Notes: generated from the sequence alone by a model not told the origin. Shown: positions 23,707-63,288, counted from the stretch's first letter. The stretch: 64,000 bases of DNA from Thermomicrobiales bacterium (GCA_049646645.1 JBARWF010000051.1:18227-82226); one strand, 5' to 3'. Translations and numbers: made by a program.

Positions 23707-23779
23707 TACCCCAGGCAGGACTCGAACCTGCGACCTACCGCTTAGAAGGCGGGCGCTCTCTCCGCTGAGCTACTGGGGC
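23707..23779 (-). tRNA. tRNA-Arg (anticodon TCT)
   Basis: Reverse complement GCCCCAGTAGCTCAGCGGAGAGAGCGCCCGCCTTCTAAGCGGTAGGTCGCAGGTTCGAGTCCTGCCTGGGGTA folds as a cloverleaf. Anticodon loop CTTCTAA, T-loop GGTTCGAGTCC. CCA not encoded. Confidence 0.9.
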
Positions 23780-36927: not shown

Positions 36928-37139
36928 CGCCAAATGGAGTGCATCCGTAGCGGTCGACTAGGAAGCTTCTCCTGAGCCTGTCGAAGGATGTCGACCATCG
37001 GCCGCAGGCCGATATCCACCGCGCTTCTGTCGTCTCAAAACTTCGTCAACTCTAGCATCGCTGAAAGTATGGCCCTGTGAGCCATGGGTGCGACACAAGG
37101 TCGCGCCCTACCAATGGCCTGTGTTTCCAGGGGAGTTTC

Positions 37140-37850
37140 ATGAGCGAACAACCGTGCATTATGGTCGTTGGTGCCCACGCCGCGGACGCGGAGATCATGG
37201 CCGGTGCCACCATTCTCAAGCATGTCGATGAGGGCTGGCGTGCCGTGATCGTGCACGCCACGCTCGGGGAGAAGGGGCACAAATCCCTCTCGCCCGAGGA
37301 CTATGCCGTTCTCAAGCGCGAAGAGGCGGAGGAGGCCGCACGTCGGCTCGGGGCGGAGTGCGTGGTGCTGCCGTACCTCGATGGCGAGCTGCCGATCAGT
37401 GAAGAGGTCCAGTGGCAGATCGCGGATGCGATCCGGAAGTACAAGCCGACCGTGCTGATCACGCACTGGAAGGGCAGTCTCCACACCGACCACACGAACA
37501 CGTATGAGAACGTGCTGGCGTCGCTCTTCTTCGCCGGGCTGAAGACGTTCAAGCGCGAGTACCCCAATCACTATCCACGCCAGATCCTCTTTGCCGAGAA
37601 CTGGGAGGATGTGGACGGCTTCGTCGCCGATTACTACCTCGACGTCACGGATGTCTGGGATCGCTATCTCGGTGCGATTCACGCCTACGCGCTCTTCCGG
37701 GGAGAGGCCGCTTCGTTCCCATACGAGCAGTGGTATCGCGGAGCAAGCGAGATGCGCGGCGCGGAGGTCGGGGTGCCGAGGGCGGTGGCGCTGATGAAGA
37801 CCGAGACGGTCTACACGCGTCGTCGCAAGCTGCCACTGCTGGGCGGTTGA
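37140..37850 (+). CDS. PIG-L/LmbE-family deacetylase
   Basis: IMVVGAHAADAEIMAGATI motif. ATG 37140 preceded by GGGGAG; the ORF opens at 37077. Confidence 0.85.
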   Translation: MSEQPCIMVVGAHAADAEIMAGATILKHVDEGWRAVIVHATLGEKGHKSLSPEDYAVLKREEAEEAARRLGAECVVLPYLDGELPISEEVQWQIADAIRKYKPTVLITHWKGSLHTDHTNTYENVLASLFFAGLKTFKREYPNHYPRQILFAENWEDVDGFVADYYLDVTDVWDRYLGAIHAYALFRGEAASFPYEQWYRGASEMRGAEVGVPRAVALMKTETVYTRRRKLPLLGG

Positions 37851-37858
37851 GCGTGACC

Positions 37859-39034
37859 ATGCATCGAACAGTCAAGAGCGGGCTCGAGGTTTTTCTTGCC
37901 GGTGGTGGCCGCGAGCTCGATGGCAAGACGGTCGGGCTCGTCACGAATCCGAATGGCGTCGATCGGGCCTTCCAGAGTGGCATTGAGCTTTTACATGAGA
38001 GTCCGCGCGTTCACCTGGCAGCCCTGTTCGGGCCGGAGCATGGCGTGCGCGGCGATGCCCAGGCCGGTGCGCATGTCGCGGCCGGGATCGATGCAAGGAG
38101 TGGTCTTCCCGTCCACAGCCTCTATGGCGAGACGCGGCGGCCGACCCCGGAGATGCTGGCGGGTCTGGATGCCATCGTGATCGACATGCAGGATCTCGGC
38201 ATCCGCTACGCAACGTACCTGTCGACGCAGATCGAAGTGCAGGCGGTGGCCCATGAAGCGGGCATCGATGTCGTCATCCTCGACCGGCCCAATCCGCTTG
38301 CCGACCTTGTGCGTGAAGGCAACGTGCTCGATCCGGCGTTCACGTCGTTTGTGGGGTCGTACCCGGTCCCGATTCGCCACGGGATGAGTCTCGGTGAGCT
38401 CGGACTTCTCGTTGCGCACGAACGCGGATGGAATGCTCCGATCGTGATCCGTGCCGAAGGTCTGATGCGGGACATGTGGTACGACGAGACCGGCCTGCCG
38501 TGGATCCTGCCTTCGCCCAACATGCCGACGCTCGATGCCCTGACGCTCTACGGCGGCACCTGCCTGGTCGAGGGGACCTCGCTTTCCGAAGGACGTGGCA
38601 CCACCAGGCCCTTCGAGTTCGTTGGGGCTCCGGGTGTCGATGCCGTGGCGCTGGCGGACGATCTGACCGGTCGGAAATTGCCGGGTCTGGCCTATCGCCC
38701 CGTCTTCTTCACGCCGATGTTCTCGAAGCATGCGGGAGAGGTCTGCGGCGGGGTACAGGTTTACTGCACCGACCGGGCAGCGATGCAGCCGGTCGCGATG
38801 GGTATCCACTTGCTGCACGCCTTGAGGCGTCACGATCCCGGCTTCGCGTGGGTCGCGCCGCAGGGAGATCGCGGCCAGTTCTTCATCGACCTGCTGCTGG
38901 GGAGCGACAGGCCCCGGCTGGCGCTGGATTCCGGCGCTGCGCCCGACGAGGTCATGGCGGAGTGGCCGGATCAATGCGCCGCGTTCGATGAGCGGCGCCG
39001 ACCGTTCCTGCTCTATCCCGAGGCGCGGTCCTGA
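37859..39034 (+). CDS. DUF1343-family protein (NamZ-like exo-beta-N-acetylmuramidase family)
   Basis: GKTVGLVTNPNGVD, ALFGPEHGVRGD and IDMQDLGIRYATY blocks typical of DUF1343. Start at ATG 37859; the ORF opens at 37730. Confidence 0.8.
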   Translation: MHRTVKSGLEVFLAGGGRELDGKTVGLVTNPNGVDRAFQSGIELLHESPRVHLAALFGPEHGVRGDAQAGAHVAAGIDARSGLPVHSLYGETRRPTPEMLAGLDAIVIDMQDLGIRYATYLSTQIEVQAVAHEAGIDVVILDRPNPLADLVREGNVLDPAFTSFVGSYPVPIRHGMSLGELGLLVAHERGWNAPIVIRAEGLMRDMWYDETGLPWILPSPNMPTLDALTLYGGTCLVEGTSLSEGRGTTRPFEFVGAPGVDAVALADDLTGRKLPGLAYRPVFFTPMFSKHAGEVCGGVQVYCTDRAAMQPVAMGIHLLHALRRHDPGFAWVAPQGDRGQFFIDLLLGSDRPRLALDSGAAPDEVMAEWPDQCAAFDERRRPFLLYPEARS

Positions 39035-39171: not shown

Positions 39172-39200
39172 GTTGACGTTTCCGGGCACTGATGTATGAT
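39172..39200 (+). promoter_or_regulatory. Sigma-70-type promoter of the riboswitch-led operon
   Basis: TTGACG-N17-TATGAT. The predicted transcription start is a few nt before the riboswitch P1 stem. Confidence 0.6.
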
Positions 39201-39204
39201 TAGT

Positions 39205-39360
39205 AGCAACATAGCCTTCGGGGATTGGTGAGCATGCCGAGTTATGGCATGCAAGTCCTGACCGGCGGTACAGCCCGCAAGCGCGAGTGGGAGCACGAGC
39301 GCACGATCCGGTGAGACTCCGGAGCCGACGGTAAAGTCCGGATGGGAGAAGGTGTTCATT
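39205..39360 (+). promoter_or_regulatory. FMN riboswitch (RFN element) aptamer
   Basis: CCTTCGGGG..GGTG..AAGTCCTGACCGGCGGTACAGCCCGCAAGCG...GATCCGGTGAGACTCCGGAGCCGACGGTAAAGTCCGGATGGGAGAAGG matches the conserved RFN core block for block (compare B. subtilis ribD leader ..CCGACCGGCGGTA..AGCCCG..GCCGACAGTGAAAGTCTGGATGGGAGAAGG). P1 pairs CCTTC with GAAGG. Confidence 0.9.
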
Positions 39361-39409
39361 CAGTGCCAGCACATCGCTGGTGCTGCATGCCGCTCCGCAA
39401 CATGTCGAA

Positions 39410-39438
39410 CCCGAGGGCCTCCGGCCCCGGGTTTTTTT
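39410..39438 (+). terminator. Intrinsic terminator (riboswitch expression platform)
   Basis: CCCGAGGGCC-TCC-GGCCCCGGG hairpin of 9 bp with one bulge, followed by T7. Confidence 0.8.
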
Positions 39439-39572
39439 GTGCCCGGGAACGTTCGTTCGGAGGCGCTTGGTGGGCATGAGGGAACGGCGGCGTTGGCCGG
39501 GGAGCAGTCATGCTCCGCGGTGCCGAGCCGCAGGTTTTTCCTCAGCTTCAACAGGTGCCCGGCAGGGCATCC

Positions 39573-40520
39573 ATGCTCAATCGTATCCTGCAACGCATCG
39601 TGCTGCTGATCGTGACGGTGATCTCGACGTCGTCCGCAATCTTCGTGCTGCTTCACGCCGCCGGCGACCCGACCCAGGGCTTTCTGCCGCCCGGCGCGTC
39701 TCCTGAGCTCCGGGCCCAGGTTCGCGCCCGGCTCGGGCTCGATGACCCGATCCTCGTGCAGTACATCCGCTTCATCTGCAATGGTCTTCGCGGGGACTTT
39801 GGCGACTCGTGGCGGGATCGCCAGCCGGCGCTGCAATCGGTGCTCGACCGGTTGCCGGCGACCATGCTGCTCGCGCTCGTGGCGGTGGCGCTGGCGACGG
39901 TCATTGGCGGCGCTCTCGCCGTGCTCGGCGTCTCCGTTCGTGTGCGCTCCCTGCGCCGCGTGCTCAATCTGATCGGGCTGCTCGGTCAGGCGATTCCAAG
40001 CTTCTGGCTGGGAACGCTCTTCATCCTGATCTTCGCCGTTCGGCTCAACTGGCTGCCGTCGTCAGGCAACGCGAGCTGGCGGTCGCTGATCCTGCCCGCG
40101 CTGACGCTGGCCGCGTACCCGGCCTCGATGATCGCTCGGCTCCTGCAGAGCAGTCTGCTGGAGGCTTCCGCCCAATCCTACGTGCGGACGGCTCGCTCCA
40201 AGGGGGTGCATGAGCGCGTCGTCTGGCTGCGGCACGCCCTGCCAAACGCCTTGCTCCCAACGCTCGGGTATGTTGGCATTCAGCTCGGGTTCCTCGTGGG
40301 CGGGACCGTGGTCGTGGAATCGGTCTTCGCCTATCCGGGTGTGGGACGGCTCGCGCTGCAGGCAGCCTCGGAGCGCGATATACCGGTCGTGCATGCCTTC
40401 GCGGTCGTGGTCGCGATTGCCGTTGTGCTGATTGGCTTCGCGATCGATCTCACCGCGGCGGCGCTCGATCCTCGACTGCGCGACAGCGAGCGGATGGCGG
40501 GGATGGCCAATCATGGCTGA
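39573..40520 (+). CDS. Opp/Dpp/Nik-family ABC transporter permease (DppB-like)
   Basis: MLNRILQRIVLLIVTV.. N-terminus and the multi-TM topology typical of DppB/OppB. The ORF opens at 39510. Confidence 0.9.
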   Translation: MLNRILQRIVLLIVTVISTSSAIFVLLHAAGDPTQGFLPPGASPELRAQVRARLGLDDPILVQYIRFICNGLRGDFGDSWRDRQPALQSVLDRLPATMLLALVAVALATVIGGALAVLGVSVRVRSLRRVLNLIGLLGQAIPSFWLGTLFILIFAVRLNWLPSSGNASWRSLILPALTLAAYPASMIARLLQSSLLEASAQSYVRTARSKGVHERVVWLRHALPNALLPTLGYVGIQLGFLVGGTVVVESVFAYPGVGRLALQAASERDIPVVHAFAVVVAIAVVLIGFAIDLTAAALDPRLRDSERMAGMANHG

Positions 40521-41448
40521 CCTCTCGATCCTGCCGCTGAAAGGCCGCCGGGTGGGTGCGCATCAGGAGATGCGAGGTGCCGAATCCGAGCGGGCAGAGC
40601 GACGGCGAGTGCCCGTTGCTTCGTGGCGCACGGCTTCCCTCGTGATGCTTGTGCCGGTCGTTGCCTTCCTTGCGATGGCGCTCGTCCTCCCGCTCTTCTT
40701 GCACGCGAGCCCGACGTCGCAGGATCTGCTGGGGCGCCTGGCACCGCCGGCCTTCATGGACGGTGGTTCCTGGGCGCATCCGCTCGGGACGGACGGTCTC
40801 GGGCGCGATATCCTCGCCCGCGTTGTCCACGGCGCGCGACTCTCCCTCCTGATCGGCCTCGTTGCCGCGACCGGCACAGCCGTGATCGGGGTCCTGGCAG
40901 GCATGCTCGCTGGTTCGGGCGGGCGCATGCTCGACGGCGCCGTGATGCTGGTCGTGGATGTGGTGATGGCGGTGCCGTTCGTCGTGATCGGCATCGTCCT
41001 CACGTCGATTCTCGGCCAGAGCCTGACGAACGTGCTCGTCATCCTGATCGTGGCCGGCTGGGTGACCTACGCGCGGATCATCCGCCTGCAGACTCGCGCG
41101 CTGATCCGATCCGAGTTCATCCAGGCGTCGTTCGCTCTCGGTGCATCAAGATGGCATGTCTTTCGAAGTCATCTCCTGCCGAACCTGATGCCGGTGCTGG
41201 CGCTGCTCTTCTTCCAACAGATCGCCGCAATGATGCTCTTCGAGGCCTCATTGACGTATCTCGGACTCGGTCTGCCGGTCGAGCGCATCACCCTCGGCGG
41301 GATGGTGCACGACGGCCAGGAGCAGATCTTCAATGGCTGGTGGGTGAGCGTCTTTCCCGGTATCGCCATCGCACTCGCGGTCATTGGTTTCAACCTGCTT
41401 GCGGATTGGCTGCAAGAACGAAGTGATCCATTTCGGCGCTGGACATAA
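40513..41448 (+). CDS. Opp/Dpp/Nik-family ABC transporter permease (DppC-like)
   Basis: HPLGTDGLGRDILARVVHGARLSL motif typical of DppC/OppC. Its ATG overlaps the upstream stop (ATGGCTGA). Confidence 0.9.
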   Translation: MADLSILPLKGRRVGAHQEMRGAESERAERRRVPVASWRTASLVMLVPVVAFLAMALVLPLFLHASPTSQDLLGRLAPPAFMDGGSWAHPLGTDGLGRDILARVVHGARLSLLIGLVAATGTAVIGVLAGMLAGSGGRMLDGAVMLVVDVVMAVPFVVIGIVLTSILGQSLTNVLVILIVAGWVTYARIIRLQTRALIRSEFIQASFALGASRWHVFRSHLLPNLMPVLALLFFQQIAAMMLFEASLTYLGLGLPVERITLGGMVHDGQEQIFNGWWVSVFPGIAIALAVIGFNLLADWLQERSDPFRRWT

Positions 41449-41459
41449 AGGAATGGTGC

Positions 41460-43034
41460 ATGCGTCGAACGCAGACGAAACGAGGAGGTATGGAGGCATT
41501 GATGCGGGTAACAGGGGATTCCTTGAATCGCCGAAGGTTTGTGCAAACGGCGGGCGCAGCATCGCTCGCGCTGGCGGGGCTATGGAACAGAGGAGCGCTC
41601 GGGGAGGCATCGGTTCAGACGCCGGACCTGTTGCCCGAGTTGGTGATTGATCTCGATGGCGGGCCGGACAACCTCGATCCGGCGCTGACCTATTCGGTTC
41701 GTGACTGGTCGATTGCGCATTCGATCTACGACGCGCTGCTTCACTTCGACGCGAAGGGGGAGATCGTGCCCCTTGCGGCGGAATCGTTCACCACGAGTGA
41801 CGCCAGGACGTTCGAGGTGAAGCTGCGGCAGGGGTTGACGTTTCATGATGGGTCGCCGGTGACGTCAAAGGCGATCACGCGGGCCGTCGACCATCTCAAG
41901 GCGTCGGATTCGCAGATCGCGGATCTCTTCCGGGGCATCACGAGGGTCGAGGAGGTCGATGAGCTCAGCGCCCGGATCATCTCGGCGGAGCCCGCCGCCT
42001 GGTTGCCCTCGCAGATCGCCGTGTGGCTGATGCTCTTCCCCGAGGGGATGTCGGATGAAACGTGGACGACAGCGCCGGTGGGGTCGGGGCCATACAAGTT
42101 CGAGAGCTACGATCCGGGCAATCAGATCGTGCTCGTCCGGAACGAACACTACACCTGGGGCAGCCCGAAGGGGGTGCCGATGGCGGAGCGTGTGACCTAC
42201 CGGTTCGTGCCGGAGGCCGCCACGCGAGTCGCCGATCTCTCGACGAAGTCGGCCCAGATCATCATCTCCGTGCCGACGGATCAGCGGGAAGCTGTGAAGA
42301 ATGCGGGCGCGGAACCGGTAGTCGAGCCGATTCTCGGGACCGCGTTCCTGCGGATCGCGACCGATACAAAACCGTTTGACGATCCGCGGGTGCGGCAGGC
42401 GTTGAACTACGCCATCGACGCCGAGACGATCGCCACCCAACTGGTGGCGCCGGAGTCGCGGCGGCTGGCGTCGCTCTTTCCAGACCCGCGCGGGCTCGGC
42501 TTCGATCCCGGACTGAAGCCGTTCGCCTACGATCCCGGCCGTGCGCGGCAATTGCTGAACGAGGCGGAAGTGGGGGACGGATTCGCGACGACATTGGAAC
42601 TGGTGACGACGGAGCAGACGACGGTCGTGGAGGCGATCGCGGCGCAGCTCGGCGAGGTCGGGATCGATGTCACGATCCAGCAGACGGAGCTGGCGGCCTT
42701 CAACCAGGCATGGCCGGACGCGTCAGCGCCGCCGTTGCGATACGCGACGTGGCGTCCGATGTACGATCCGCACTCCCTGCTCAGTCTCATGTTCCTCAGC
42801 ACCGGGTTCCTTTCCCGGTACAAGGATCCAGAGGCGGACGCGCTGATCCTCGAGGCGGCGACGGAGCCGGACCCGTCGAAGCGGGAGTCGATCTATCAGG
42901 AACTTGGACGCCGCTTCCAGCAGGAGCCGGCGGCGGTCTATCTCTGGAATGTCACGTCGACGTATGGAGTCGCGCCGGACGCCGCATCCTGGCAGCCGCG
43001 TGGCGACGACTACGTCATCGCGACGCACTCGTAA
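41460..43034 (+). CDS. Family-5 ABC substrate-binding protein, copy 1 (Tat signal)
   Basis: Twin-arginine signal NRRRFVQTAGAASLALAG and an SBP_bac_5-like body (GSGPYKF.., DPRVRQALNYAID). Confidence 0.9.
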   Translation: MRRTQTKRGGMEALMRVTGDSLNRRRFVQTAGAASLALAGLWNRGALGEASVQTPDLLPELVIDLDGGPDNLDPALTYSVRDWSIAHSIYDALLHFDAKGEIVPLAAESFTTSDARTFEVKLRQGLTFHDGSPVTSKAITRAVDHLKASDSQIADLFRGITRVEEVDELSARIISAEPAAWLPSQIAVWLMLFPEGMSDETWTTAPVGSGPYKFESYDPGNQIVLVRNEHYTWGSPKGVPMAERVTYRFVPEAATRVADLSTKSAQIIISVPTDQREAVKNAGAEPVVEPILGTAFLRIATDTKPFDDPRVRQALNYAIDAETIATQLVAPESRRLASLFPDPRGLGFDPGLKPFAYDPGRARQLLNEAEVGDGFATTLELVTTEQTTVVEAIAAQLGEVGIDVTIQQTELAAFNQAWPDASAPPLRYATWRPMYDPHSLLSLMFLSTGFLSRYKDPEADALILEAATEPDPSKRESIYQELGRRFQQEPAAVYLWNVTSTYGVAPDAASWQPRGDDYVIATHS

Positions 43035-43053
43035 GAAAGATTGAGGAAAGCCC

Positions 43054-44640
43054 ATGAGTTTCCGGTCCACTGATTGTTCTAGCTGGACGGCTCAGATTGG
43101 GAGGACGCGCGTTTCCCGGCGCGGGCTGGTCCGCGGTAGCGGGGCGCTCGCGCTCTCCATGGCGGCGATGGGGGGAATCTCCCTTCCCGGTATGGCGGCC
43201 GCACAGGACGCGACTGATGACCACCTGTTCGATGTCGTGACGATCGATCTCTCGGGTGAGCCGGAGAGTATCGATCCCGCCAATGCTTACGCTCCACGCG
43301 ACTGGTCGATCGTCCATTCGATCTACGATGCGCCGGTCCAGATCGGGCCGAACGGCGAGATCGAGCCGCTGGCGGCGGAATCGCTGACTTTCCTCGATTC
43401 GAAGACGATCGAGATCAAGCTTCGGTCGGGCATCCACTTTCACGACGGCGCGCCGCTGACATCCGCGGCGATCACCCGGTCGGTTGCACACCTGAAATCG
43501 TCCGATTCCAAGGTTGTTGATCTCTTCAACGTCATCACCGAGGTCAAGGAGATCGACGAGTTGACGGCCCACATCATCACGTCGGAGCCCTCGCCGTCAT
43601 TGCCCTCGCAGATGGTGGCCTATTTGCTCTTGCTGCCCGAGGGGGCGACCGCCGAATCGATGGCGACCACGCCGATCGGGACCGGTCCCTACAAGTTTGT
43701 CGAATACGTCTCCGGAAGCGAGATCACGCTCGCACGCAACGAGAAGTACACCTGGGGGAGCCCGAAGGGGACGCCGATCGCGGAGAAGGCGGTTTACCGC
43801 TTCGTGCCGGAGATGGCGACTCGCGTCGCCGATCTCTCGTCGGCCGTCGCCGATATCATCATCGAGATCCCGACCGATCAGAAGGCGGCGATCGAGGCCG
43901 CGGGCGCCATCGCGGTCGATGTGGCGCTGGTCGGATCCGCTTTCGTGCGTCTCATCACCGATCAAAAGCCGTTCGATGACCCCCGGGTGCGGCAGGCCAT
44001 GAACCATGCCGTAGATGTGCAATCGATCGCGACCGCCCTCGTCTCGCCGGAGGCGAAGCGCCTGGCCGGGATCTATCCGGACAAGCGCAGCATGGGGTTC
44101 GATCCCGACCTGGCGCCGTATCCATACGATCCGGACAAGGCGCGGGCATTGCTTGCCGAGGCGGGGCTGGCGAATGGATTTGATGTCGATTTTGATATCA
44201 CCACCGCCGCGCGCAAGGAGATCGCCGAGGCGATCGCGGCCCAGCTCGCCGAGGTCGGCATTCGCACGACGATCAAGGCGCATCCGTATACGGAGTTCAA
44301 CGCCACATTCAAGGAGGGCACCGCTCCGCTGCGGATGCTGACCTGGAGCGGGCTCTATGACCCGCAGACGCTCCTCAGCCTCGTCTTCGCGAAGGACGGA
44401 TACCTCTCGCGGTATACGAATGCGGAGGCCGACAAGCTGATCGCCGAGGCGGCTGTCGAGACGGATGCCTCCAAGCGGACCCAACTTTACCGGCAGCTCG
44501 GCAAGGTGATGTATGACGATCCGGCGGCGATCTATCTCTGGAATCTGACGGCGATGTATGGGGTCAGCCAGCGCGCGAAGGCATGGCAGCCGCGCGGCGA
44601 CGAATATGTGCTGCCGGTCGTGACGAGTGACGCGGGATGA
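43054..44640 (+). CDS. Family-5 ABC substrate-binding protein, copy 2 (Tat signal)
   Basis: Collinear paralog of 41460..43034, roughly half identical by eye. Signal SRRGLVRGSGALALS. Confidence 0.9.
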   Translation: MSFRSTDCSSWTAQIGRTRVSRRGLVRGSGALALSMAAMGGISLPGMAAAQDATDDHLFDVVTIDLSGEPESIDPANAYAPRDWSIVHSIYDAPVQIGPNGEIEPLAAESLTFLDSKTIEIKLRSGIHFHDGAPLTSAAITRSVAHLKSSDSKVVDLFNVITEVKEIDELTAHIITSEPSPSLPSQMVAYLLLLPEGATAESMATTPIGTGPYKFVEYVSGSEITLARNEKYTWGSPKGTPIAEKAVYRFVPEMATRVADLSSAVADIIIEIPTDQKAAIEAAGAIAVDVALVGSAFVRLITDQKPFDDPRVRQAMNHAVDVQSIATALVSPEAKRLAGIYPDKRSMGFDPDLAPYPYDPDKARALLAEAGLANGFDVDFDITTAARKEIAEAIAAQLAEVGIRTTIKAHPYTEFNATFKEGTAPLRMLTWSGLYDPQTLLSLVFAKDGYLSRYTNAEADKLIAEAAVETDASKRTQLYRQLGKVMYDDPAAIYLWNLTAMYGVSQRAKAWQPRGDEYVLPVVTSDAG

Positions 44641-45299
44641 TCGGGTCCTCTTACGAAGAACAGCTCCCCGAGCGTTCCCACGATCTCTTCGCAGTGATTC
44701 CGGGCCGGTCCTCGGTGCGGGCCTTTCGGCCGGACCCGGTCCCCGGGGAGCTGATCCGGAATGCGATCGAGGCGGCCGGCTGGGCTCCTTCACCGCATGG
44801 CACGCAGCCGTGGCGCTTCGTCGTGATCGAATCACCGGAGATGCGGCACCGCCTCGCGAACGCGATGGCGGCCACCTGGCGCGACCAGCTGCGGCAGGAT
44901 GGGGAACATCCGGAGAAGATCGAGCACCGCGTGCGCCGGAGCCAGGAGCGCCTGACGACGGCGCCGGTCGTGGTGATGCTCTGCCTTTATCTGGAGCACG
45001 CGGCGGAGTATCCAGATGCGGAACGGCAGGAGGCCGAGGAGTTGATGGCGGTACAGAGCTTGGGCGCGGCGGCGCAGAACTTTCTGCTGGCGTTGCACGC
45101 GCAGGGGCTCGACGCGGGCTGGATGTGTGCGCCGCTCTTTTGTCCGGCTCTCGTGCGTGATGAAATTGGGCTGGCGGCGGAATTGATTCCGCACGCGATG
45201 TTCCCGTTGGGGCGGATGGCCGCGCCTCCGAAGCGTCGGCCGCGCCTGGCGGTGGATGAGCTCATCGCCGAATGGATTGGCGATGTCGTAAATCCGTAG
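44637..45299 (+). CDS. Nitroreductase-fold flavoprotein resembling the C-terminal domain of FbiB
   Basis: 220 aa. RSSVRAFRPDPVP, APSPHGTQPWRFVVI, W..QLRQDG..IEHRVRRSQ and YPDAERQEAEELMAVQSLGAAAQN blocks are collinear with my recollection of the mycobacterial FbiB C-terminal domain. Its ATG overlaps the SBP stop (ATGA). Confidence 0.8.
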   Translation: MIGSSYEEQLPERSHDLFAVIPGRSSVRAFRPDPVPGELIRNAIEAAGWAPSPHGTQPWRFVVIESPEMRHRLANAMAATWRDQLRQDGEHPEKIEHRVRRSQERLTTAPVVVMLCLYLEHAAEYPDAERQEAEELMAVQSLGAAAQNFLLALHAQGLDAGWMCAPLFCPALVRDEIGLAAELIPHAMFPLGRMAAPPKRRPRLAVDELIAEWIGDVVNP

Positions 45300-45301
45300 G
45301 A

Positions 45302-45434
45302 TGCGATTGCATGTCAGCAGCCGCCTCGGAACCGATCGGGAGGGCCACAAGCCCGATATCCTGACACGCGATCGTTGGGATGGCGATATGGCTCTGCGCG
45401 TCGACGGTGGGACACAGGGCCGCTACCCACGAAT
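45302..45434 (+). repeat. Intergenic repeat, copy A
   Basis: The first 60 nt are 55/60 identical to the reverse complement of 49625..49684. Further shared blocks GCGATATGGCyCTGCG, GACACAGGG and ACGAA. Confidence 0.7.
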
Positions 45435-45453
45435 CGTGCAGGCCCGTTCATTG

Positions 45454-45723
45454 TCAGAAGACCAGCCAGGCGCCGATCAGGCCGAGCGCGAGCACGAAGA
45501 GGACGATGCTCGCGATGCCGAGCCCTGTCAGCCAGGCAAGCAGTCCGCCCGCGATCAGGAGCACGACGAGCGCGATCAGGTAATTGCGCTGGAGGGCAGT
45601 CAGTTGGAGGGAGCGATCATTAACGACCCACGGATCGGGAGAGGGACGCACGGCGTCGCCCGCGAGAACCTGGCGCGCGCTTTGAAGGCGGTGTCTTTTC
45701 TGCTGGCGGTTATTCTGGCTCAC
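45454..45723 (-). CDS. Small hypothetical membrane protein
   Basis: 89-aa ORF with two C-terminal hydrophobic helices (YLIALVVLLIAGGLLAWL, IASIVLFVLALGLIGAWLVF). Confidence 0.5.
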   Translation of the reverse strand: MSQNNRQQKRHRLQSARQVLAGDAVRPSPDPWVVNDRSLQLTALQRNYLIALVVLLIAGGLLAWLTGLGIASIVLFVLALGLIGAWLVF

Positions 45724-45754
45724 GGAACGCTCCCTTCGAGGCGCGACGCGGAAA

Positions 45755-45964
45755 CTACGGCGCAGGAGTCGGCCGGTGCTCGCTGGTGCCGAGCCTGGCG
45801 ACGCGCTCCCAGATCAGCACGACCGCGATCTTCACGACTCCGGCCCATGTCAGCATGATCCCTGCCAGTAGCCAGACCACGCTGAGGCCAGCGAGCATCG
45901 CGGCGGCGATGGTGAGAAGACCGGCAAGGGTGATCGCCCAGGATGTGATACGAAGGTAGCGCAT
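45755..45964 (-). CDS. Small hypothetical membrane protein
   Basis: 69-aa ORF with two predicted TM helices, upstream of and co-oriented with 45454..45723. Confidence 0.5.
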   Translation of the reverse strand: MRYLRITSWAITLAGLLTIAAAMLAGLSVVWLLAGIMLTWAGVVKIAVVLIWERVARLGTSEHRPTPAP

Positions 45965-45988: not shown

Positions 45989-46786
45989 TTACGATGGGTT
46001 CTCGGCGATGACGATGATGCGGTCGGATTCGTCGGTCAGCGGGCCGAGCTCGTAGCTTCCGAAGACATTCCAGTGCGCGTAGCCGGCCAGTTCCAGCATC
46101 AGTTCCAGCTCGTGCGGGTGAACGTAGCGCAAGGGGAACTGGGTCCGCGTCCGCCGGAGCATGCCGTCAGGACTGACGCTATCGTACCAGAGGGCGGTGT
46201 CCAGAATCTGGTCGGCGGAGAAGAGCACGCGGTGCGACCACTTGTCGATCACCGTGCCGTCCTCCTGCGTCCACGTCCCCTCCAGATGCGAGCGCGACGT
46301 GAGGTGCTGTAGCTGCTCGTGACTGGGATTCATCGTGTCGATCACAAGGTGGCCCCCGGGCTGGAGCGCTTTCCTGGCGGCCGCCAGGGCCGCGCGCTGG
46401 GTCGCGGGGTCGTCGAGGTGCATCAGGGCGTTGAGGGAGAAGAGGACGAGGCCGAACGGGCCGCCCGGCGCGTTGGGAGCATCGTACATCTCCCCCTCGA
46501 AGAGCGTGATCTTGCGGCCGGCCTTGCTTCCCGCGATGCGCCGCCGGGCGCGGTCGAGCATCACCGGCGACGCATCGAGTCCGGTCACCGGGCGCCCGGT
46601 CTCGGCGATGGGTATCAGCAGGCGGCCGGTGCCGGCGCCCAATTCGAGGACGGGGCCCTCGATCGATTCCAGCAATCCGAGGTAGAGCTCGGTATCCTCG
46701 TCGTAGTCGTCGTGCTCCAGATCGTAGAGCTTAGCGATTCGGGCGTATGGGTCATGTGGGGTGTGGTCGTCATCACGCTCATTCAT
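45989..46786 (-). CDS. Class I SAM-dependent methyltransferase
   Basis: Motif I VLELGAGTGR and downstream motifs. Confidence 0.85.
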   Translation of the reverse strand: MNERDDDHTPHDPYARIAKLYDLEHDDYDEDTELYLGLLESIEGPVLELGAGTGRLLIPIAETGRPVTGLDASPVMLDRARRRIAGSKAGRKITLFEGEMYDAPNAPGGPFGLVLFSLNALMHLDDPATQRAALAAARKALQPGGHLVIDTMNPSHEQLQHLTSRSHLEGTWTQEDGTVIDKWSHRVLFSADQILDTALWYDSVSPDGMLRRTRTQFPLRYVHPHELELMLELAGYAHWNVFGSYELGPLTDESDRIIVIAENPS

Positions 46787-47023
46787 GCGCTCATTTTACC
46801 CCCGTCTTCGCGATGATGTGTCGGGCAGGAGTGCCCGGATTGAGCGACGGTTGCTTTTTCCAGGGATCGTGTTCGCCTAGGTATCGGCATCGACTCGGGC
46901 CTCCTCAAGGAGTCCCCGAGTCGAGCACATACCCGCGATTTGGACAGAGCGGAACATGCCCTTCGACCGATAATCGGGCAAGATGTTTGACGCTGCTTGT
47001 CGCTGCCCTCTATAGTGCTGCCT

Positions 47024-47515
47024 ATGGCGAAGAAGAGCGCAGGCGCGAAGCAGGCAACGCCACGCGGAGACCGGGTGGTGGCGCAGAACCGACGCGCCTT
47101 TCATGACTATTTCATAGACGAGACGATCGAGGCGGGGATCTCGTTGACGGGGTCGGAGATCAAGTCGATTCGCGATGGCAAGGTCACCATCAGCGAGGCT
47201 TACGTGCGCGTCGACAACGGCGAGCTGTGGCTGATCGGCTCCCACATCAACCCGTACACGCATGGTGCCTACGCGAACCATGAGCCCGACCGCCCGCGCA
47301 AGCTGCTAGTGCACAAGCGGGAGATCGTCGAGCTGCGGGAGGCGACCGAGCGCAAAGGCCTGACGATCGTGCCGCTGCGGGTGCGGATCCGGAACGGCCG
47401 GGCGAAGGTCGATATCGGTGTGGCGCGCGGCAAGCACCTCTACGACAAGCGCCAATCCGAGATTGCGCGGGATGCCAAGCGGGACATGGCACGCGCGATC
47501 CGGAACCGTGAGTAG
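47024..47515 (+). CDS. smpB: SsrA-binding protein SmpB
   Basis: NRRAFHDYFI..TGSEIKSIR..LLVHKREI.. canonical SmpB. ATG 47024 (MAKKS); the ORF opens at 46997. Confidence 0.95.
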   Translation: MAKKSAGAKQATPRGDRVVAQNRRAFHDYFIDETIEAGISLTGSEIKSIRDGKVTISEAYVRVDNGELWLIGSHINPYTHGAYANHEPDRPRKLLVHKREIVELREATERKGLTIVPLRVRIRNGRAKVDIGVARGKHLYDKRQSEIARDAKRDMARAIRNRE

Positions 47516-47606: not shown

Positions 47607-47968
47607 GGGGATGCCTGGATTCGACAGGGTCAATCGTCAGGCCATTGCACGTCGAGAGCGCCCGAGGCCTCGTAAAAAACGGGCAATACAGTAGCTGCGA
47701 AACCACAGCTCGCTTACGCTGCCTAAGTCTTAGACCTCTAGTCAGCGCGTCCAGCCGGACCTTCCTTCACCGGGACCGGGTCTGGGCGTCACCAAGGTGA
47801 AGTGCGACGACCTAGTCCGCTGGAGCGCGGTCGTCCAAGGCAGTCCAGCTCACCGGCCAGGAACCCTGTCGATGGGGGTCTTGCCCGGCACATAAATCAT
47901 CGACTAAACGTGTAGTAGATGTCCGACCGTTGGTTCTGGACGGGGGTTCGATTCCCCCCATCTCCACA
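47607..47968 (+). ncRNA. ssrA: tmRNA (SsrA)
   Basis: 5' GGGGATGCCTGGATTCGACAGGG and 3' GGACGGGGGTTCGATTCCCCCCATCTCCA form the tRNA-like domain. Internal tag ORF 47682-47726: GNTVAAKPQLAYAA*. Terminal CCA not encoded. Confidence 0.9.
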
Positions 47969-47977
47969 AATGCATGC

Positions 47978-63211: not shown

Positions 63212-63288
63212 GGAGGCGTGGTGTAGTGGCCTAACATGCAGCCCTGTCAAGGCTGAGACCGCGGGTTCGAATCCCGTCGCTTCCGCCA
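63212..63288 (+). tRNA. tRNA-Asp (anticodon GTC)
   Basis: GGAGGCGTGGTGTAGTGG...CAGCCCTGTCAAGGCTG...GGGTTCGAATCCCGTCGCTTCCGCCA forms a cloverleaf with anticodon loop CTGTCAA. CCA is encoded. Confidence 0.9.

What the first reader, a model, noticed from the sequence alone, without database searches (positions are those of the whole stretch)
39172..45299. FMN riboswitch controlling an Opp/Dpp-type ABC importer with twin binding proteins and an FbiB-C-like flavoprotein, but no ATPase genes
Seen in sequence: a complete regulatory unit precedes five tightly packed genes.
- Regulatory unit: TTGACG-N17-TATGAT promoter, a full RFN aptamer at 39205-39360, then a 9-bp hairpin plus T7 terminator at 39410-39438.
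- Genes: DppB-like permease, DppC-like permease, two paralogous Tat-exported family-5 binding proteins, and a 220-aa nitroreductase-fold protein.
- Spacing: ATGGCTGA overlap, 11-nt gap, 19-nt gap, ATGA overlap. No ABC ATPase (DppD/F) lies in or next to the locus.

Established knowledge: FMN riboswitches regulate riboflavin biosynthesis and flavin uptake. The flavin transporters I can recall as riboswitch-linked are RibU/ECF, RibM/PnuX, ImpX, RfnT, RibN and RibXY; I recall the CUT2-type RfuABCD as another flavin transporter, but not as riboswitch-linked. None of these belongs to the Opp/Dpp/Nik family. The FbiB C-terminal domain is an FMN-binding enzyme of deazaflavin (F420) biosynthesis.

Inference: this may be an undescribed flavin or deazaflavin salvage system (riboflavin, FMN, lumichrome or Fo), with two binding proteins of different specificity and a cytoplasmic flavin-processing reductase. 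It would borrow ATPases encoded elsewhere.
Basis: partly seen in the sequence, partly recalled or inferred. Interest (0 to 1): 0.85.

Follow-up and report, generated by a model that had tools for sequence, protein, structure and literature searches.

The report
FMN-switched importer operon carrying F420 reductase
A vitamin-B2-sensing RNA switch in uncultured Thermomicrobiales turns off an ATPase-less, peptide/nickel-type ABC importer operon that ends with an F420-cofactor maturation enzyme, which points to an undescribed flavin or deazaflavin uptake system whose cargo is still unknown.

Summary
A canonical FMN riboswitch (RF00050, 85 bits against a gathering score of 66.2) with an intrinsic terminator precedes two Opp/Dpp-type permeases, two paralogous family-5 binding proteins and a nitroreductase-fold gene. 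No ABC ATPase lies anywhere in the 64 kb window.

The arrangement recurs. All 23 unique related loci with enough upstream sequence carry the aptamer, and none of 95 related loci has an ATPase gene. ATPases appear in 45 of 70 loci of distant homologues of the binding protein.

The organism is an uncultured Thermomicrobiales bacterium (Chloroflexota).

The nitroreductase is not an unknown flavin-processing enzyme. It belongs to the stand-alone FbiB-C-terminal family ("FbiE", dehydro-F420-0 reductase of Thermomicrobia). Relatives sit next to cofE, or the whole riboswitch cassette is embedded in cofD-cofC-cofE clusters. Many relatives are fused to an F420-dependent PPOX domain.

The transporter family is absent from the published riboflavin-transporter catalogues I could read, and I found no paper linking FMN riboswitches to F420 genes.

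The cargo is unresolved. Riboflavin or FMN is most likely, and the deazaflavin Fo or F420 is a serious rival.

Verdict: a new variant of a known kind, of moderately high interest.

The parts
39173..39200 (+). sigma-70-like promoter TTGACG-N16-TATGAT
   Evidence: One search finds 10 of 12 matches. The chance expectation is about one site per region, so this is weak alone. The TTGAC and -10 positions are conserved in aligned leaders.
39210..39357 (+). FMN riboswitch aptamer (RF00050)
   Evidence: One search gives 85 bits against a gathering score of 66.2. Orthologous aptamers score 86-93 bits in L001-L004, L006, L079 and L081-L084. There are compensatory changes in P2, P4 and P5.
39407..39438 (+). 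intrinsic terminator (expression platform): GC-rich hairpin plus U7
   Evidence: A hairpin with a U-run lies 70-100 nt after the aptamer in most of 25 unique leaders, and the stem sequences differ but stay complementary.
39459..39465 (+). invariant GGAGGC, complementary to the terminator-loop GCCUCC (39418-39423); role unknown
   Evidence: No conserved uORF follows it.
39510..40520 (+). permease 1 (DppB/NikB-like); the conserved start is probably 39573
   Evidence: PF00528 scores 113.6 bits and PF19300 37.1 bits. It falls below every NCBIfam equivalog cut-off.
40513..41448 (+). permease 2 (DppC/NikC-like), overlapping permease 1 by 8 nt
   Evidence: PF00528 scores 116.5 bits. The gene call is 311 aa. 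The junction is shown.
41460..43034 (+). binding protein a (family 5, Tat-type signal NRRRFVQ); alternative start at 41502
   Evidence: PF00496 scores 230 bits. The AF2 model has pLDDT 87.8. The best PDB match is 5U4O at 26% identity.
43054..44640 (+). binding protein b (family 5, Tat-type signal SRRGLVR), an old paralogue of a
   Evidence: PF00496 scores 222 bits. The a and b copies form separate orthologous clades across loci. It lacks the DppA Asp408 equivalent.
44637..45299 (+). FbiE-like stand-alone nitroreductase (FbiB C-terminal domain homologue), translationally coupled by an ATGA overlap
   Evidence: PF00881 scores 121 bits. TIGR03553 scores 164 bits, below its 249.55 cut-off. The best PDB match is 4XOM (FbiB C-terminal domain), E 5e-34. 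It is 54% identical to the T. roseum nitroreductase in the cofD-cofC cluster.

Best explanation
This is an FMN-repressed operon.

Regulation (inferred from anatomy):
- When FMN is plentiful it binds the canonical aptamer, the downstream terminator forms, and transcription stops before the genes.
- When FMN is scarce, read-through expresses the operon.

What the operon encodes:
- A binding-protein-dependent ABC importer of the peptide/nickel (Opp/Dpp/Nik) family that has been recruited to take up a flavin. Riboflavin, FMN or FAD is the most likely cargo. This is inferred from the rule that FMN riboswitches control riboflavin supply genes.
- Two anciently duplicated Tat-exported binding proteins that deliver cargo to the two permeases.
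- The FMN-dependent dehydro-F420-0 reductase FbiE, which is co-transcribed. Scarce FMN is thereby answered both by import and by more of an FMN-requiring enzyme of the neighbouring deazaflavin pathway (inferred).

The two ATPase subunits must be supplied from elsewhere in the genome (inferred, as was proposed for RibXY).
For: - The aptamer scores above the gathering score, and the Rfam-conserved core positions are intact. These include the G-rich J1-2, ACCGGCGG, GCCGAC and GGAUGGGAG segments, which hold the FMN contacts listed in PMC6298564.
- The terminator is conserved, with compensatory stem changes.
- All 23 unique loci with enough upstream sequence have the aptamer. These loci lie in at least four different genomic neighbourhoods.
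- Distant homologues of the binding protein (31% identity or less) have no aptamer.
- Published surveys say FMN riboswitches are found only with riboflavin biosynthesis or transport genes (PMC4418817; PMC6298564).
- ATPase-less riboswitch-controlled ABC importers have a precedent in RibXY (PMC3766115).
- The transporter occurs without the nitroreductase in L003, L004, L005 and L007, so it functions independently of FbiE.
- The binding proteins lack the Asp that clamps the peptide amino group in DppA.
- FbiE needs FMN (PMC8498797).
Against: - No family-5 binding protein is known to bind a flavin. The nearest solved relatives bind glutathione, peptides, nickel chelates or opines, at 26% identity or less.
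- The tight and repeated association with F420 genes is not needed for a plain riboflavin importer. That association includes fbiE in the operon, the PPOX F420-dependent fusion, and embedding in cofD-cofC-cofE-LLM clusters.
- Putting fbiE behind an FMN OFF switch is hard to explain if FbiE is needed whenever F420 is made.
- A cultured relative, Sphaerobacter, already has an FMN-controlled RibXY, so a second riboflavin importer might be redundant.
- The antiterminator could not be identified with confidence.
Confidence: 0.45

Rival explanations
1. This is a deazaflavin salvage system. The importer takes up Fo (or F420 or a fragment of it), possibly alongside riboflavin, with one binding protein for each. 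FbiE is co-expressed because imported Fo must pass through dehydro-F420-0. FMN control makes sense because de novo Fo synthesis consumes the riboflavin precursor 5-amino-6-ribitylaminouracil. When FMN is low the cell would import Fo instead of making it.
For: - fbiE is the last gene of the operon in the window and in most nitroreductase-seeded loci.
- In L099, L132 and L133 the cassette lies inside cofD-cofC-cofE-LLM...NTR clusters.
- Many operons carry a TIGR03668 F420-dependent PPOX domain fused to the nitroreductase, scoring above the cut-off.
- T. roseum has a different transporter (DMT family) in the same position, cofD-cofC-DMT-NTR.
- The twin binding proteins have been kept as separate orthologous lineages.
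- The best NCBIfam hit of SBP-a is the gamma-glutamyl-peptide binder GsiB, and F420 has a gamma-glutamyl tail.
Against: - The aptamer is a canonical FMN sensor, not a visibly altered one.
- All tested FMN-riboswitch transporters import riboflavin.
- The transporter also occurs without fbiE.
- The host lineage has the F420 tail genes, and T. roseum makes F420 itself, so salvage is not obviously needed.
- No deazaflavin importer is known to serve as a precedent.
Confidence: 0.27
2. Gene-order accident. The riboswitch-transporter cassette inserted upstream of fbiE inside an ancestral F420 cluster, and the two have simply travelled together since. FMN control of fbiE has no adaptive meaning, and fbiE also has its own promoter.
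For: - In L099, L132 and L133 the cassette sits exactly between LLM and the nitroreductase of a cof cluster, whereas other lineages have cofE-NTR adjacent.
- The nitroreductase is missing from the operon in 4 of 7 genome loci found through the binding protein.
Against: - The linkage survives relocation to at least three other neighbourhoods (NamZ...methyltransferase, DnaJ..., DinB...).
- The stop and start codons overlap (ATGA), with no room for a promoter.
- Transporter-linked nitroreductases form their own clades.
Confidence: 0.13
3. This is an ordinary peptide, glutathione or nickel importer whose control by FMN reflects an indirect flavin-sparing response rather than uptake of a flavin-like cargo.
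For: The best family matches are the nickel (Opp2/NikA) and glutathione (GsiB) systems. The structural neighbours bind peptides, glutathione and nickel chelates.
Against: - All these matches fall far below the equivalog cut-offs, at 26% identity or less.
- The DppA Asp408 is replaced by Leu or Met.
- There is no precedent for FMN riboswitches on such genes among 842 and 11,603 surveyed riboswitches.
- Typical loci of this family carry ATPase genes, and these do not.
Confidence: 0.1

Closest known systems
RibXY(Z), the FMN-riboswitch-controlled riboflavin ABC importer of Chloroflexi
   Same: It occurs in the same phylum. It has an FMN riboswitch upstream, is binding-protein dependent, and the operon usually lacks the ATPase gene (PMC3766115; PMC4418817).
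   Different: RibY and RibX belong to the ThiY/NMT1-TauC (NitT/TauT) family, with one permease. Here there are two PepT-family permeases and family-5 binding proteins, with no sequence relationship to RibXY. This operon also carries fbiE.
Opp/Dpp/Nik/Gsi (PepT-family) ABC importers such as DppABCDF, GsiABCD and NikABCDE
   Same: It has two BPD_transp_1 permeases with the N-terminal extension, and a cluster-C family-5 binding protein fold.
   Different: - There are no DppD/DppF ATPase genes in 95 loci, against 45 of 70 loci of ordinary relatives.
- It falls below every equivalog cut-off.
- The peptide-clamping Asp is missing.
- Control is by riboswitch, and the last gene is an F420 enzyme.
FbiB C-terminal domain / stand-alone FbiE (dehydro-F420-0 reductase) of Mycobacterium and Thermomicrobium roseum
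   Same: - The best PDB hit is 4XOM, and the best family is TIGR03553.
- It is 54% identical to the T. roseum nitroreductase encoded in cofD-cofC-DMT-NTR, with the same TIGR03553 score (164 against 163).
- Relatives are adjacent to cofE.
   Different: Here it is the last gene of an FMN-riboswitch-controlled importer operon, far from any cof gene in the 64 kb window. Transporter-linked copies form their own clades.
RfuABCD (CUT2-type riboflavin ABC importer of spirochaetes)
   Same: It is a binding-protein-dependent ABC importer for riboflavin, and one homologue has an FMN riboswitch.
   Different: It belongs to a different ABC family (sugar-type CUT2, a BMP-family binding protein) and encodes its own ATPase.
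Variant FMN riboswitches of Clostridioides difficile (Atilho et al. 2019)
   Same: They share the FMN-class aptamer architecture upstream of transporter genes.
   Different: The variants carry G-to-A changes in the ribityl-phosphate pocket, are ON switches, and control efflux pumps. The aptamer here keeps the consensus pocket and precedes an importer with a terminator.

Membership tests
FMN riboswitch (Rfam RF00050) | Covariance-model score at or above the curated gathering score | tested here: met
   The window scores 85.0 bits against 66.2. Ten orthologous leaders score 86-93 bits.
FMN riboswitch (Rfam RF00050) | Conserved ligand-pocket nucleotides (G10, G11, G32, G62, G84, A48, A85, A99 of 3F2Q) | tested here: met
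   All upper-case consensus positions in these junctions match and are invariant in 11 leaders. The only departures are C to A after GGGG and G to A/U at the first J3-4 position. The J3-4 change is lineage-specific and absent in L081-L083. Mapping to the 3F2Q numbering was done through the Rfam consensus and from memory.
FMN riboswitch (Rfam RF00050) | Expression platform that couples ligand binding to gene control | tested here: met
   A terminator hairpin with a U-tract is conserved with compensatory changes. The antiterminator was not resolved.
FMN riboswitch (Rfam RF00050) | Binds FMN and represses expression | not testable with these tools
   This needs in-line probing and termination assays.
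PepT (Opp/Dpp/Nik) ABC importer | Two integral-membrane permeases of the BPD_transp_1 type | tested here: met
   PF00528 scores 113.6 and 116.5 bits, and PF19300 matches on permease 1.
PepT (Opp/Dpp/Nik) ABC importer | Family-5 (cluster C) extracytoplasmic binding protein | tested here: met
   PF00496 scores 230 and 222 bits. AF2 plus Foldseek gives TM 0.8 to 5U4O, GsiB and DppA.
PepT (Opp/Dpp/Nik) ABC importer | Two cognate ATPase genes (DppD/DppF type) in the operon | tested here: not met
   There is no ORF with Walker A plus the ABC signature in the window or in 95 related loci covering 863 kb. The positive control finds them in 45 of 70 loci of distant relatives.
PepT (Opp/Dpp/Nik) ABC importer | Peptide-type ligand clamp (DppA Asp408 / Arg355) | tested here: not met
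   Asp408 aligns with Leu in SBP-b (TWSGLYDP) and, read by eye without an alignment, appears to be Met in SBP-a (TWRPMYDP). The Arg355 alignment is ambiguous.
FbiE / FbiB C-terminal domain (dehydro-F420-0 reductase) | Nitroreductase fold most similar to the FbiB C-terminal domain | tested here: met
   PF00881 matches, the best PDB hit is 4XOM at E 5e-34, and the best NCBIfam family is TIGR03553.
FbiE / FbiB C-terminal domain (dehydro-F420-0 reductase) | Score above the TIGR03553 equivalog-domain cut-off | tested here: not met
   It scores 164 bits against 249.55. The T. roseum nitroreductase in the cof cluster scores the same, 163.4, so the model, which was built on fused FbiB, does not capture stand-alone members.
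FbiE / FbiB C-terminal domain (dehydro-F420-0 reductase) | Genomic linkage to cofC/cofD/cofE | tested here: inconclusive
   The linkage is met in relatives: cofE-NTR adjacency in L125, L128, L144, L150, L153 and L156; cofD-cofC-cofE-LLM-cassette-NTR in L099, L132 and L133; and T. roseum cofD-cofC-DMT-NTR. It is not met in this window, which has no cof gene in 64 kb.
FbiE / FbiB C-terminal domain (dehydro-F420-0 reductase) | FMNH2-dependent reduction of dehydro-F420-0 | not testable with these tools
   This needs an enzyme assay. The primary paper (Braga et al. 2020) could not be read here and is cited through PMC8498797.
Catalogued riboflavin importers (RibU, RibM/PnuX, RibN, ImpX, RfnT, RibXY, RibZ, RibV, RfuABCD) | Homology to one of the nine families | tested here: not met
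   The Pfam and NCBIfam hits are only PF00528, PF19300 and PF00496 of the Opp/Dpp/Nik type. The catalogues list no such system.

The most novel reading that the evidence does not exclude
The operon is the first importer for a deazaflavin (Fo or F420), or a dual riboflavin/Fo importer with one binding protein for each. It would be wired to an FMN riboswitch so that the cell balances its flavin and deazaflavin budgets, which share the precursor 5-amino-6-ribitylaminouracil. A more extreme version is that these aptamers also respond to a deazaflavin.
Probability: 0.27. Interest if true: 0.85.

Novelty: new variant of a known kind. Interest (0 to 1): 0.66.

Why it matters
If the cargo is a flavin, this adds a tenth riboflavin importer family. 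It would be the first from the large peptide/nickel ABC family, and it would show that thousands of generically annotated "peptide/nickel" transporters in soil Chloroflexota are vitamin transporters.

If the cargo is Fo or F420, it would be the first known deazaflavin importer. It would support the idea that F420 or its chromophore is traded as a public good in soils.

Either way, this is the first regulatory link I could find between FMN sensing and the F420 pathway (fbiE). It is also a clear, testable case of an ABC importer that systematically relies on ATPases encoded elsewhere.

Tried and rejected
- **Actinobacterial origin.** My first guess from the high GC content was wrong. The relatives are Thermomicrobiales.
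- **ORF 45301-45858 as a sixth gene or PNPOx-like protein.** It has no family hit, low-complexity sequence, and is not called by the gene caller. It lies antisense to two conserved small membrane-protein genes.
- **Altered-specificity 'variant' FMN riboswitch.** The pocket positions match the consensus, and the J3-4 G-to-A change is lineage-specific.
- **BluB-like flavin destructase.** TIGR02476 scores only 65.7 bits against a cut-off of 150.
- **Leader peptide after the conserved GGAGGC.** There is no conserved ORF.
- **Antiterminator.** RNAfold gave no convincing structure that competes with the terminator.
- **Reading Rodionova et al. 2015 and Braga et al. 2020.** Neither paper is held.
- **Cargo from structure.** AF2 plus Foldseek returned only the generic family-5 fold with mixed ligands.
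- **Context of stand-alone PPOX::NTR genes (L116, L154).** The neighbours are unrelated: aquaporin, AI-2E transporter and an FAD oxidase.
- **Flanks of L122 and L129.** They contain nothing flavin-related and no ATPase.
- **Whole-genome checks.** Presence of rib, ribXY, fbiC or orphan ATPase genes could not be checked, because only up to 20 kb per locus is available.

Full report

Yes. Rfam finds a full-length FMN aptamer at 39210-39357 on the + strand, scoring 85.0 bits against a gathering score of 66.2 (E 6.6e-18).

Regulatory elements around it:
- A TTGACG-N16-TATGAT promoter-like site lies at 39173-39200. The spacer is 16, not 17. One such site is also what shuffles give, so it counts only because its position is conserved in related leaders.
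- A GC-rich hairpin with a U7 tract lies about 50 nt after the aptamer, at 39407-39438, with a folding energy of -20.9 kcal/mol.

Genes that follow:
- permB at 39510-40520. Its conserved start is likely 39573.
- permC at 40513-41448, overlapping permB in ATGGCTGA.
- Two family-5 binding proteins at 41460 (or 41502)-43034 and 43054-44640. They are 52-55% identical to each other and carry RR-type signal sequences.
- A 220-aa nitroreductase-fold protein at 44637-45299, with an ATGA overlap.

A six-frame scan finds no ORF with a Walker A motif plus the ABC signature anywhere in the 64 kb window. The ORF at 45301-45858 is not a gene.

**2. Does it recur?**

The closest relatives of the first binding protein are all in uncultured Thermomicrobiales, Sphaerobacteraceae or other Chloroflexota genomes.

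- All five orthologous genome loci with upstream sequence have RF00050 in the same place. Ten loci of distant homologues (31% identity or less) have none.
- Five homologues of the nitroreductase were looked up individually. All sit at the end of the same permease-permease-binding protein module, each with the aptamer.
- A metagenome scan seeded with the nitroreductase gave 80 more loci.
- Over all material, 23 of 23 unique loci that contain permB and at least 450 nt upstream carry the aptamer.
- A hairpin with a U-run follows the aptamer in most of the 25 unique leaders, with different but complementary stems.
- The aptamer shows compensatory changes in P2, P4 and P5.

None of the 95 module or nitroreductase loci (863 kb) encodes an ABC ATPase. 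The same detector finds one in 45 of 70 loci (976 kb) of ordinary relatives of the binding protein. The missing ATPase is therefore a conserved property and not an assembly gap.

**3. What is the nitroreductase?**

- Its best solved relative is the C-terminal domain of M. tuberculosis FbiB (4XOM, E 5e-34).
- Its best curated family is TIGR03553, scoring 164 bits, below the cut-off of 249.55.

In about 18 metagenome loci the same protein family (54-61% identity) occurs without the transporter. In these loci it either lies immediately downstream of cofE, a split FbiB in clusters ordered cofE-NTR-cofD-cofC, or it is a stand-alone fusion.

On the Thermomicrobium roseum megaplasmid the homologue is 54% identical to the window protein and has the same TIGR03553 score of 163 bits. 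It lies in the cluster cofD-cofC-DMT transporter-NTR.

[quoted passage not shown] This enzyme reduces dehydro-F420-0, depends on FMN, and was described by Braga et al. 2020. I could not read that primary paper.

I therefore read the window gene as an FbiE-family enzyme. Activity is inferred, not shown.

**4. Further links to F420**

- In L099, L132 and L133 the whole cassette lies inside an F420 cluster, in the order cofD-cofC-cofE-LLM-[aptamer-permB-permC-binding protein]-NTR. The same arrangement appears partly in L083, L142 and L163.
- The LLM gene belongs to the F420-dependent glucose-6-phosphate dehydrogenase family, TIGR03557.
- In a large set of single-binding-protein modules, the nitroreductase is fused to an N-terminal TIGR03668 PPOX-class F420-dependent oxidoreductase domain. 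It scores above the cut-off in four of five tested proteins (Pfam). NCBI names these fusions as coming from Thermomicrobiales.
- A neighbour-joining tree places the transporter-linked nitroreductases in two clades and the cofE-linked or stand-alone ones in a third.
- The linkage is frequent but not obligatory. Among the seven genome loci found through the binding protein, L001, L002 and L006 have the nitroreductase, and L003, L004, L005 and L007 do not.

**5. The binding proteins**

- The a and b copies are old paralogues, each orthologous across loci. A separate duplication occurred in L100, L129 and L130.
- An AlphaFold model of copy a is confident (pLDDT 87.8).
- The model matches the generic family-5 fold. 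The best match is the unliganded B. anthracis protein 5U4O at 26% identity, followed by GsiB, GbpA, DppA, NikA and AccA.
- No flavin binder is known in this fold family.
- The Asp that clamps the peptide amino group in DppA (Asp408) aligns with Leu in copy b, and by eye is Met in copy a.
- All NCBIfam matches are far below their equivalog cut-offs.

**6. Is it known?**

- The RegPrecise-based survey (PMC3766115) did not include Thermomicrobia. It lists ribU, impX, pnuX, ribX and ribY as the FMN-regulated transporters.
- The survey of 842 FMN riboswitches (PMC4418817) lists no Opp/Dpp-type system. For Sphaerobacter thermophilus it records only ribYX and the rib operon.
- Atilho et al. name only COG3601, COG0697, COG3201 and TauC proteins among the associations of 11,603 aptamers.
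- A 2026 review still counts nine importer families.
- A full-text search for papers containing both 'FMN riboswitch' and 'F420' found none that links the two.

Within what I could read, the association is undescribed. The individual parts (the riboswitch class, the ABC family and FbiE) are known.

**7. Mechanism**

What is shown:
- A canonical FMN aptamer followed by a conserved terminator.
- Tight operon structure.
- Tat-type binding proteins.
- No ATPase genes.

What is inferred:
- FMN binding causes termination.
- FMN shortage allows expression of a binding-protein-dependent importer that borrows ATPases.
- The cargo is a flavin-type molecule.

I rank the possible cargoes as follows:
- **Riboflavin, FMN or FAD (0.45).** Every tested FMN-controlled transporter imports riboflavin, and the transporter can occur without fbiE.
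- **Deazaflavin (Fo or F420) or dual-cargo importer (0.27).** The F420 association is repeated in three independent ways, and T. roseum has another transporter in the same position.
- **Pure gene-order hitch-hiking of fbiE (0.13).**
- **An ordinary peptide, nickel or glutathione importer (0.10).**

Three things remain unexplained:
- Why an enzyme needed for F420 synthesis sits behind an FMN OFF switch.
- What the antiterminator is.
- What the invariant GGAGGC at 39459-39465 does. It is complementary to the terminator-loop GCCUCC.

**8. Verdict**

The 'FbiB-C-like flavoprotein' is most probably the known enzyme FbiE, which moves the reading towards deazaflavin metabolism.
- The system is a new variant of a known kind: a riboswitch-controlled cofactor ABC importer built from a transporter family not previously tied to flavins, and the first link between FMN sensing and the F420 pathway.
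- Interest is 0.66.

Noticed in passing
window 39459-39465 and 39418-39423: An invariant GGAGGC lies about 20 nt after the terminator U-tract. It is exactly complementary to the invariant GCCUCC in the terminator loop and 5' arm, and RNAfold pairs them in read-through RNA. No conserved uORF follows. The role is unknown.
   Followed up: partly
L165 (T. roseum megaplasmid NC_011961.1, 786360-789573): The F420 cluster cofD-cofC-DMT family transporter-nitroreductase puts a different kind of transporter in the same position before the FbiE homologue. nhmmer finds no FMN aptamer there.
   Followed up: partly
L081 8001-9068; L122 9464-10597; L132 9533-10651; L100 4655-5797: Fusion proteins of about 360-380 aa are widespread in Thermomicrobiales. 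They join a TIGR03668 PPOX-class F420-dependent oxidoreductase domain to an FbiB-C-like nitroreductase. This suggests that F420H2 may supply the electrons for the FMN-dependent reduction of dehydro-F420-0.
   Followed up: partly
window 45454-45723 (-), 45755-45964 (-), 45989-46786 (-): A class-I SAM methyltransferase is followed by two small predicted membrane proteins (69 and 89 aa), converging on the operon. The same trio follows the operon in L079, L082 (small ORFs only) and L084. Their function is unknown.
   Followed up: no
window 45301-45858 (+): This 185-aa ORF directly after the nitroreductase is low-complexity, has no family hit, and lies antisense to the conserved small membrane-protein genes. 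It is probably not a gene.
   Followed up: yes
window 46997-47515 (+) and 47607-47969 (+): The smpB gene (NF003843, 204 bits) lies immediately upstream of the tmRNA gene (RF00023, 165.6 bits). This synteny is conserved in L001, L003, L007, L079 and L084.
   Followed up: partly
window 37077-37850 (+) and 37730-39034 (+): A PIG-L/BshB1-like deacetylase and the exo-beta-N-acetylmuramidase NamZ lie directly upstream of the riboswitch. This pair looks like a cell-wall sugar recycling unit and is conserved in L001, L002 and L085.
   Followed up: no
window 39281 (aptamer J3-4, first nucleotide): The Rfam-conserved G is A in the window-type leaders and U in L006, but G in L081-L083. This is a lineage-specific departure outside the listed FMN contacts.
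   Followed up: partly
L083 1111-2100; L099 3956-4936; L132 4733-5713: The LLM gene between cofE and the riboswitch cassette passes the F420-dependent G6PDH-family model TIGR03557. It scores even higher, though below the cut-off, on TIGR03885 'flavin_revert' (FMN-dependent LLM).
   Followed up: no
window 23707-23779 (-) and 63212-63285 (+): Two tRNA genes are found by Rfam. They have no evident relation to the operon.
   Followed up: no
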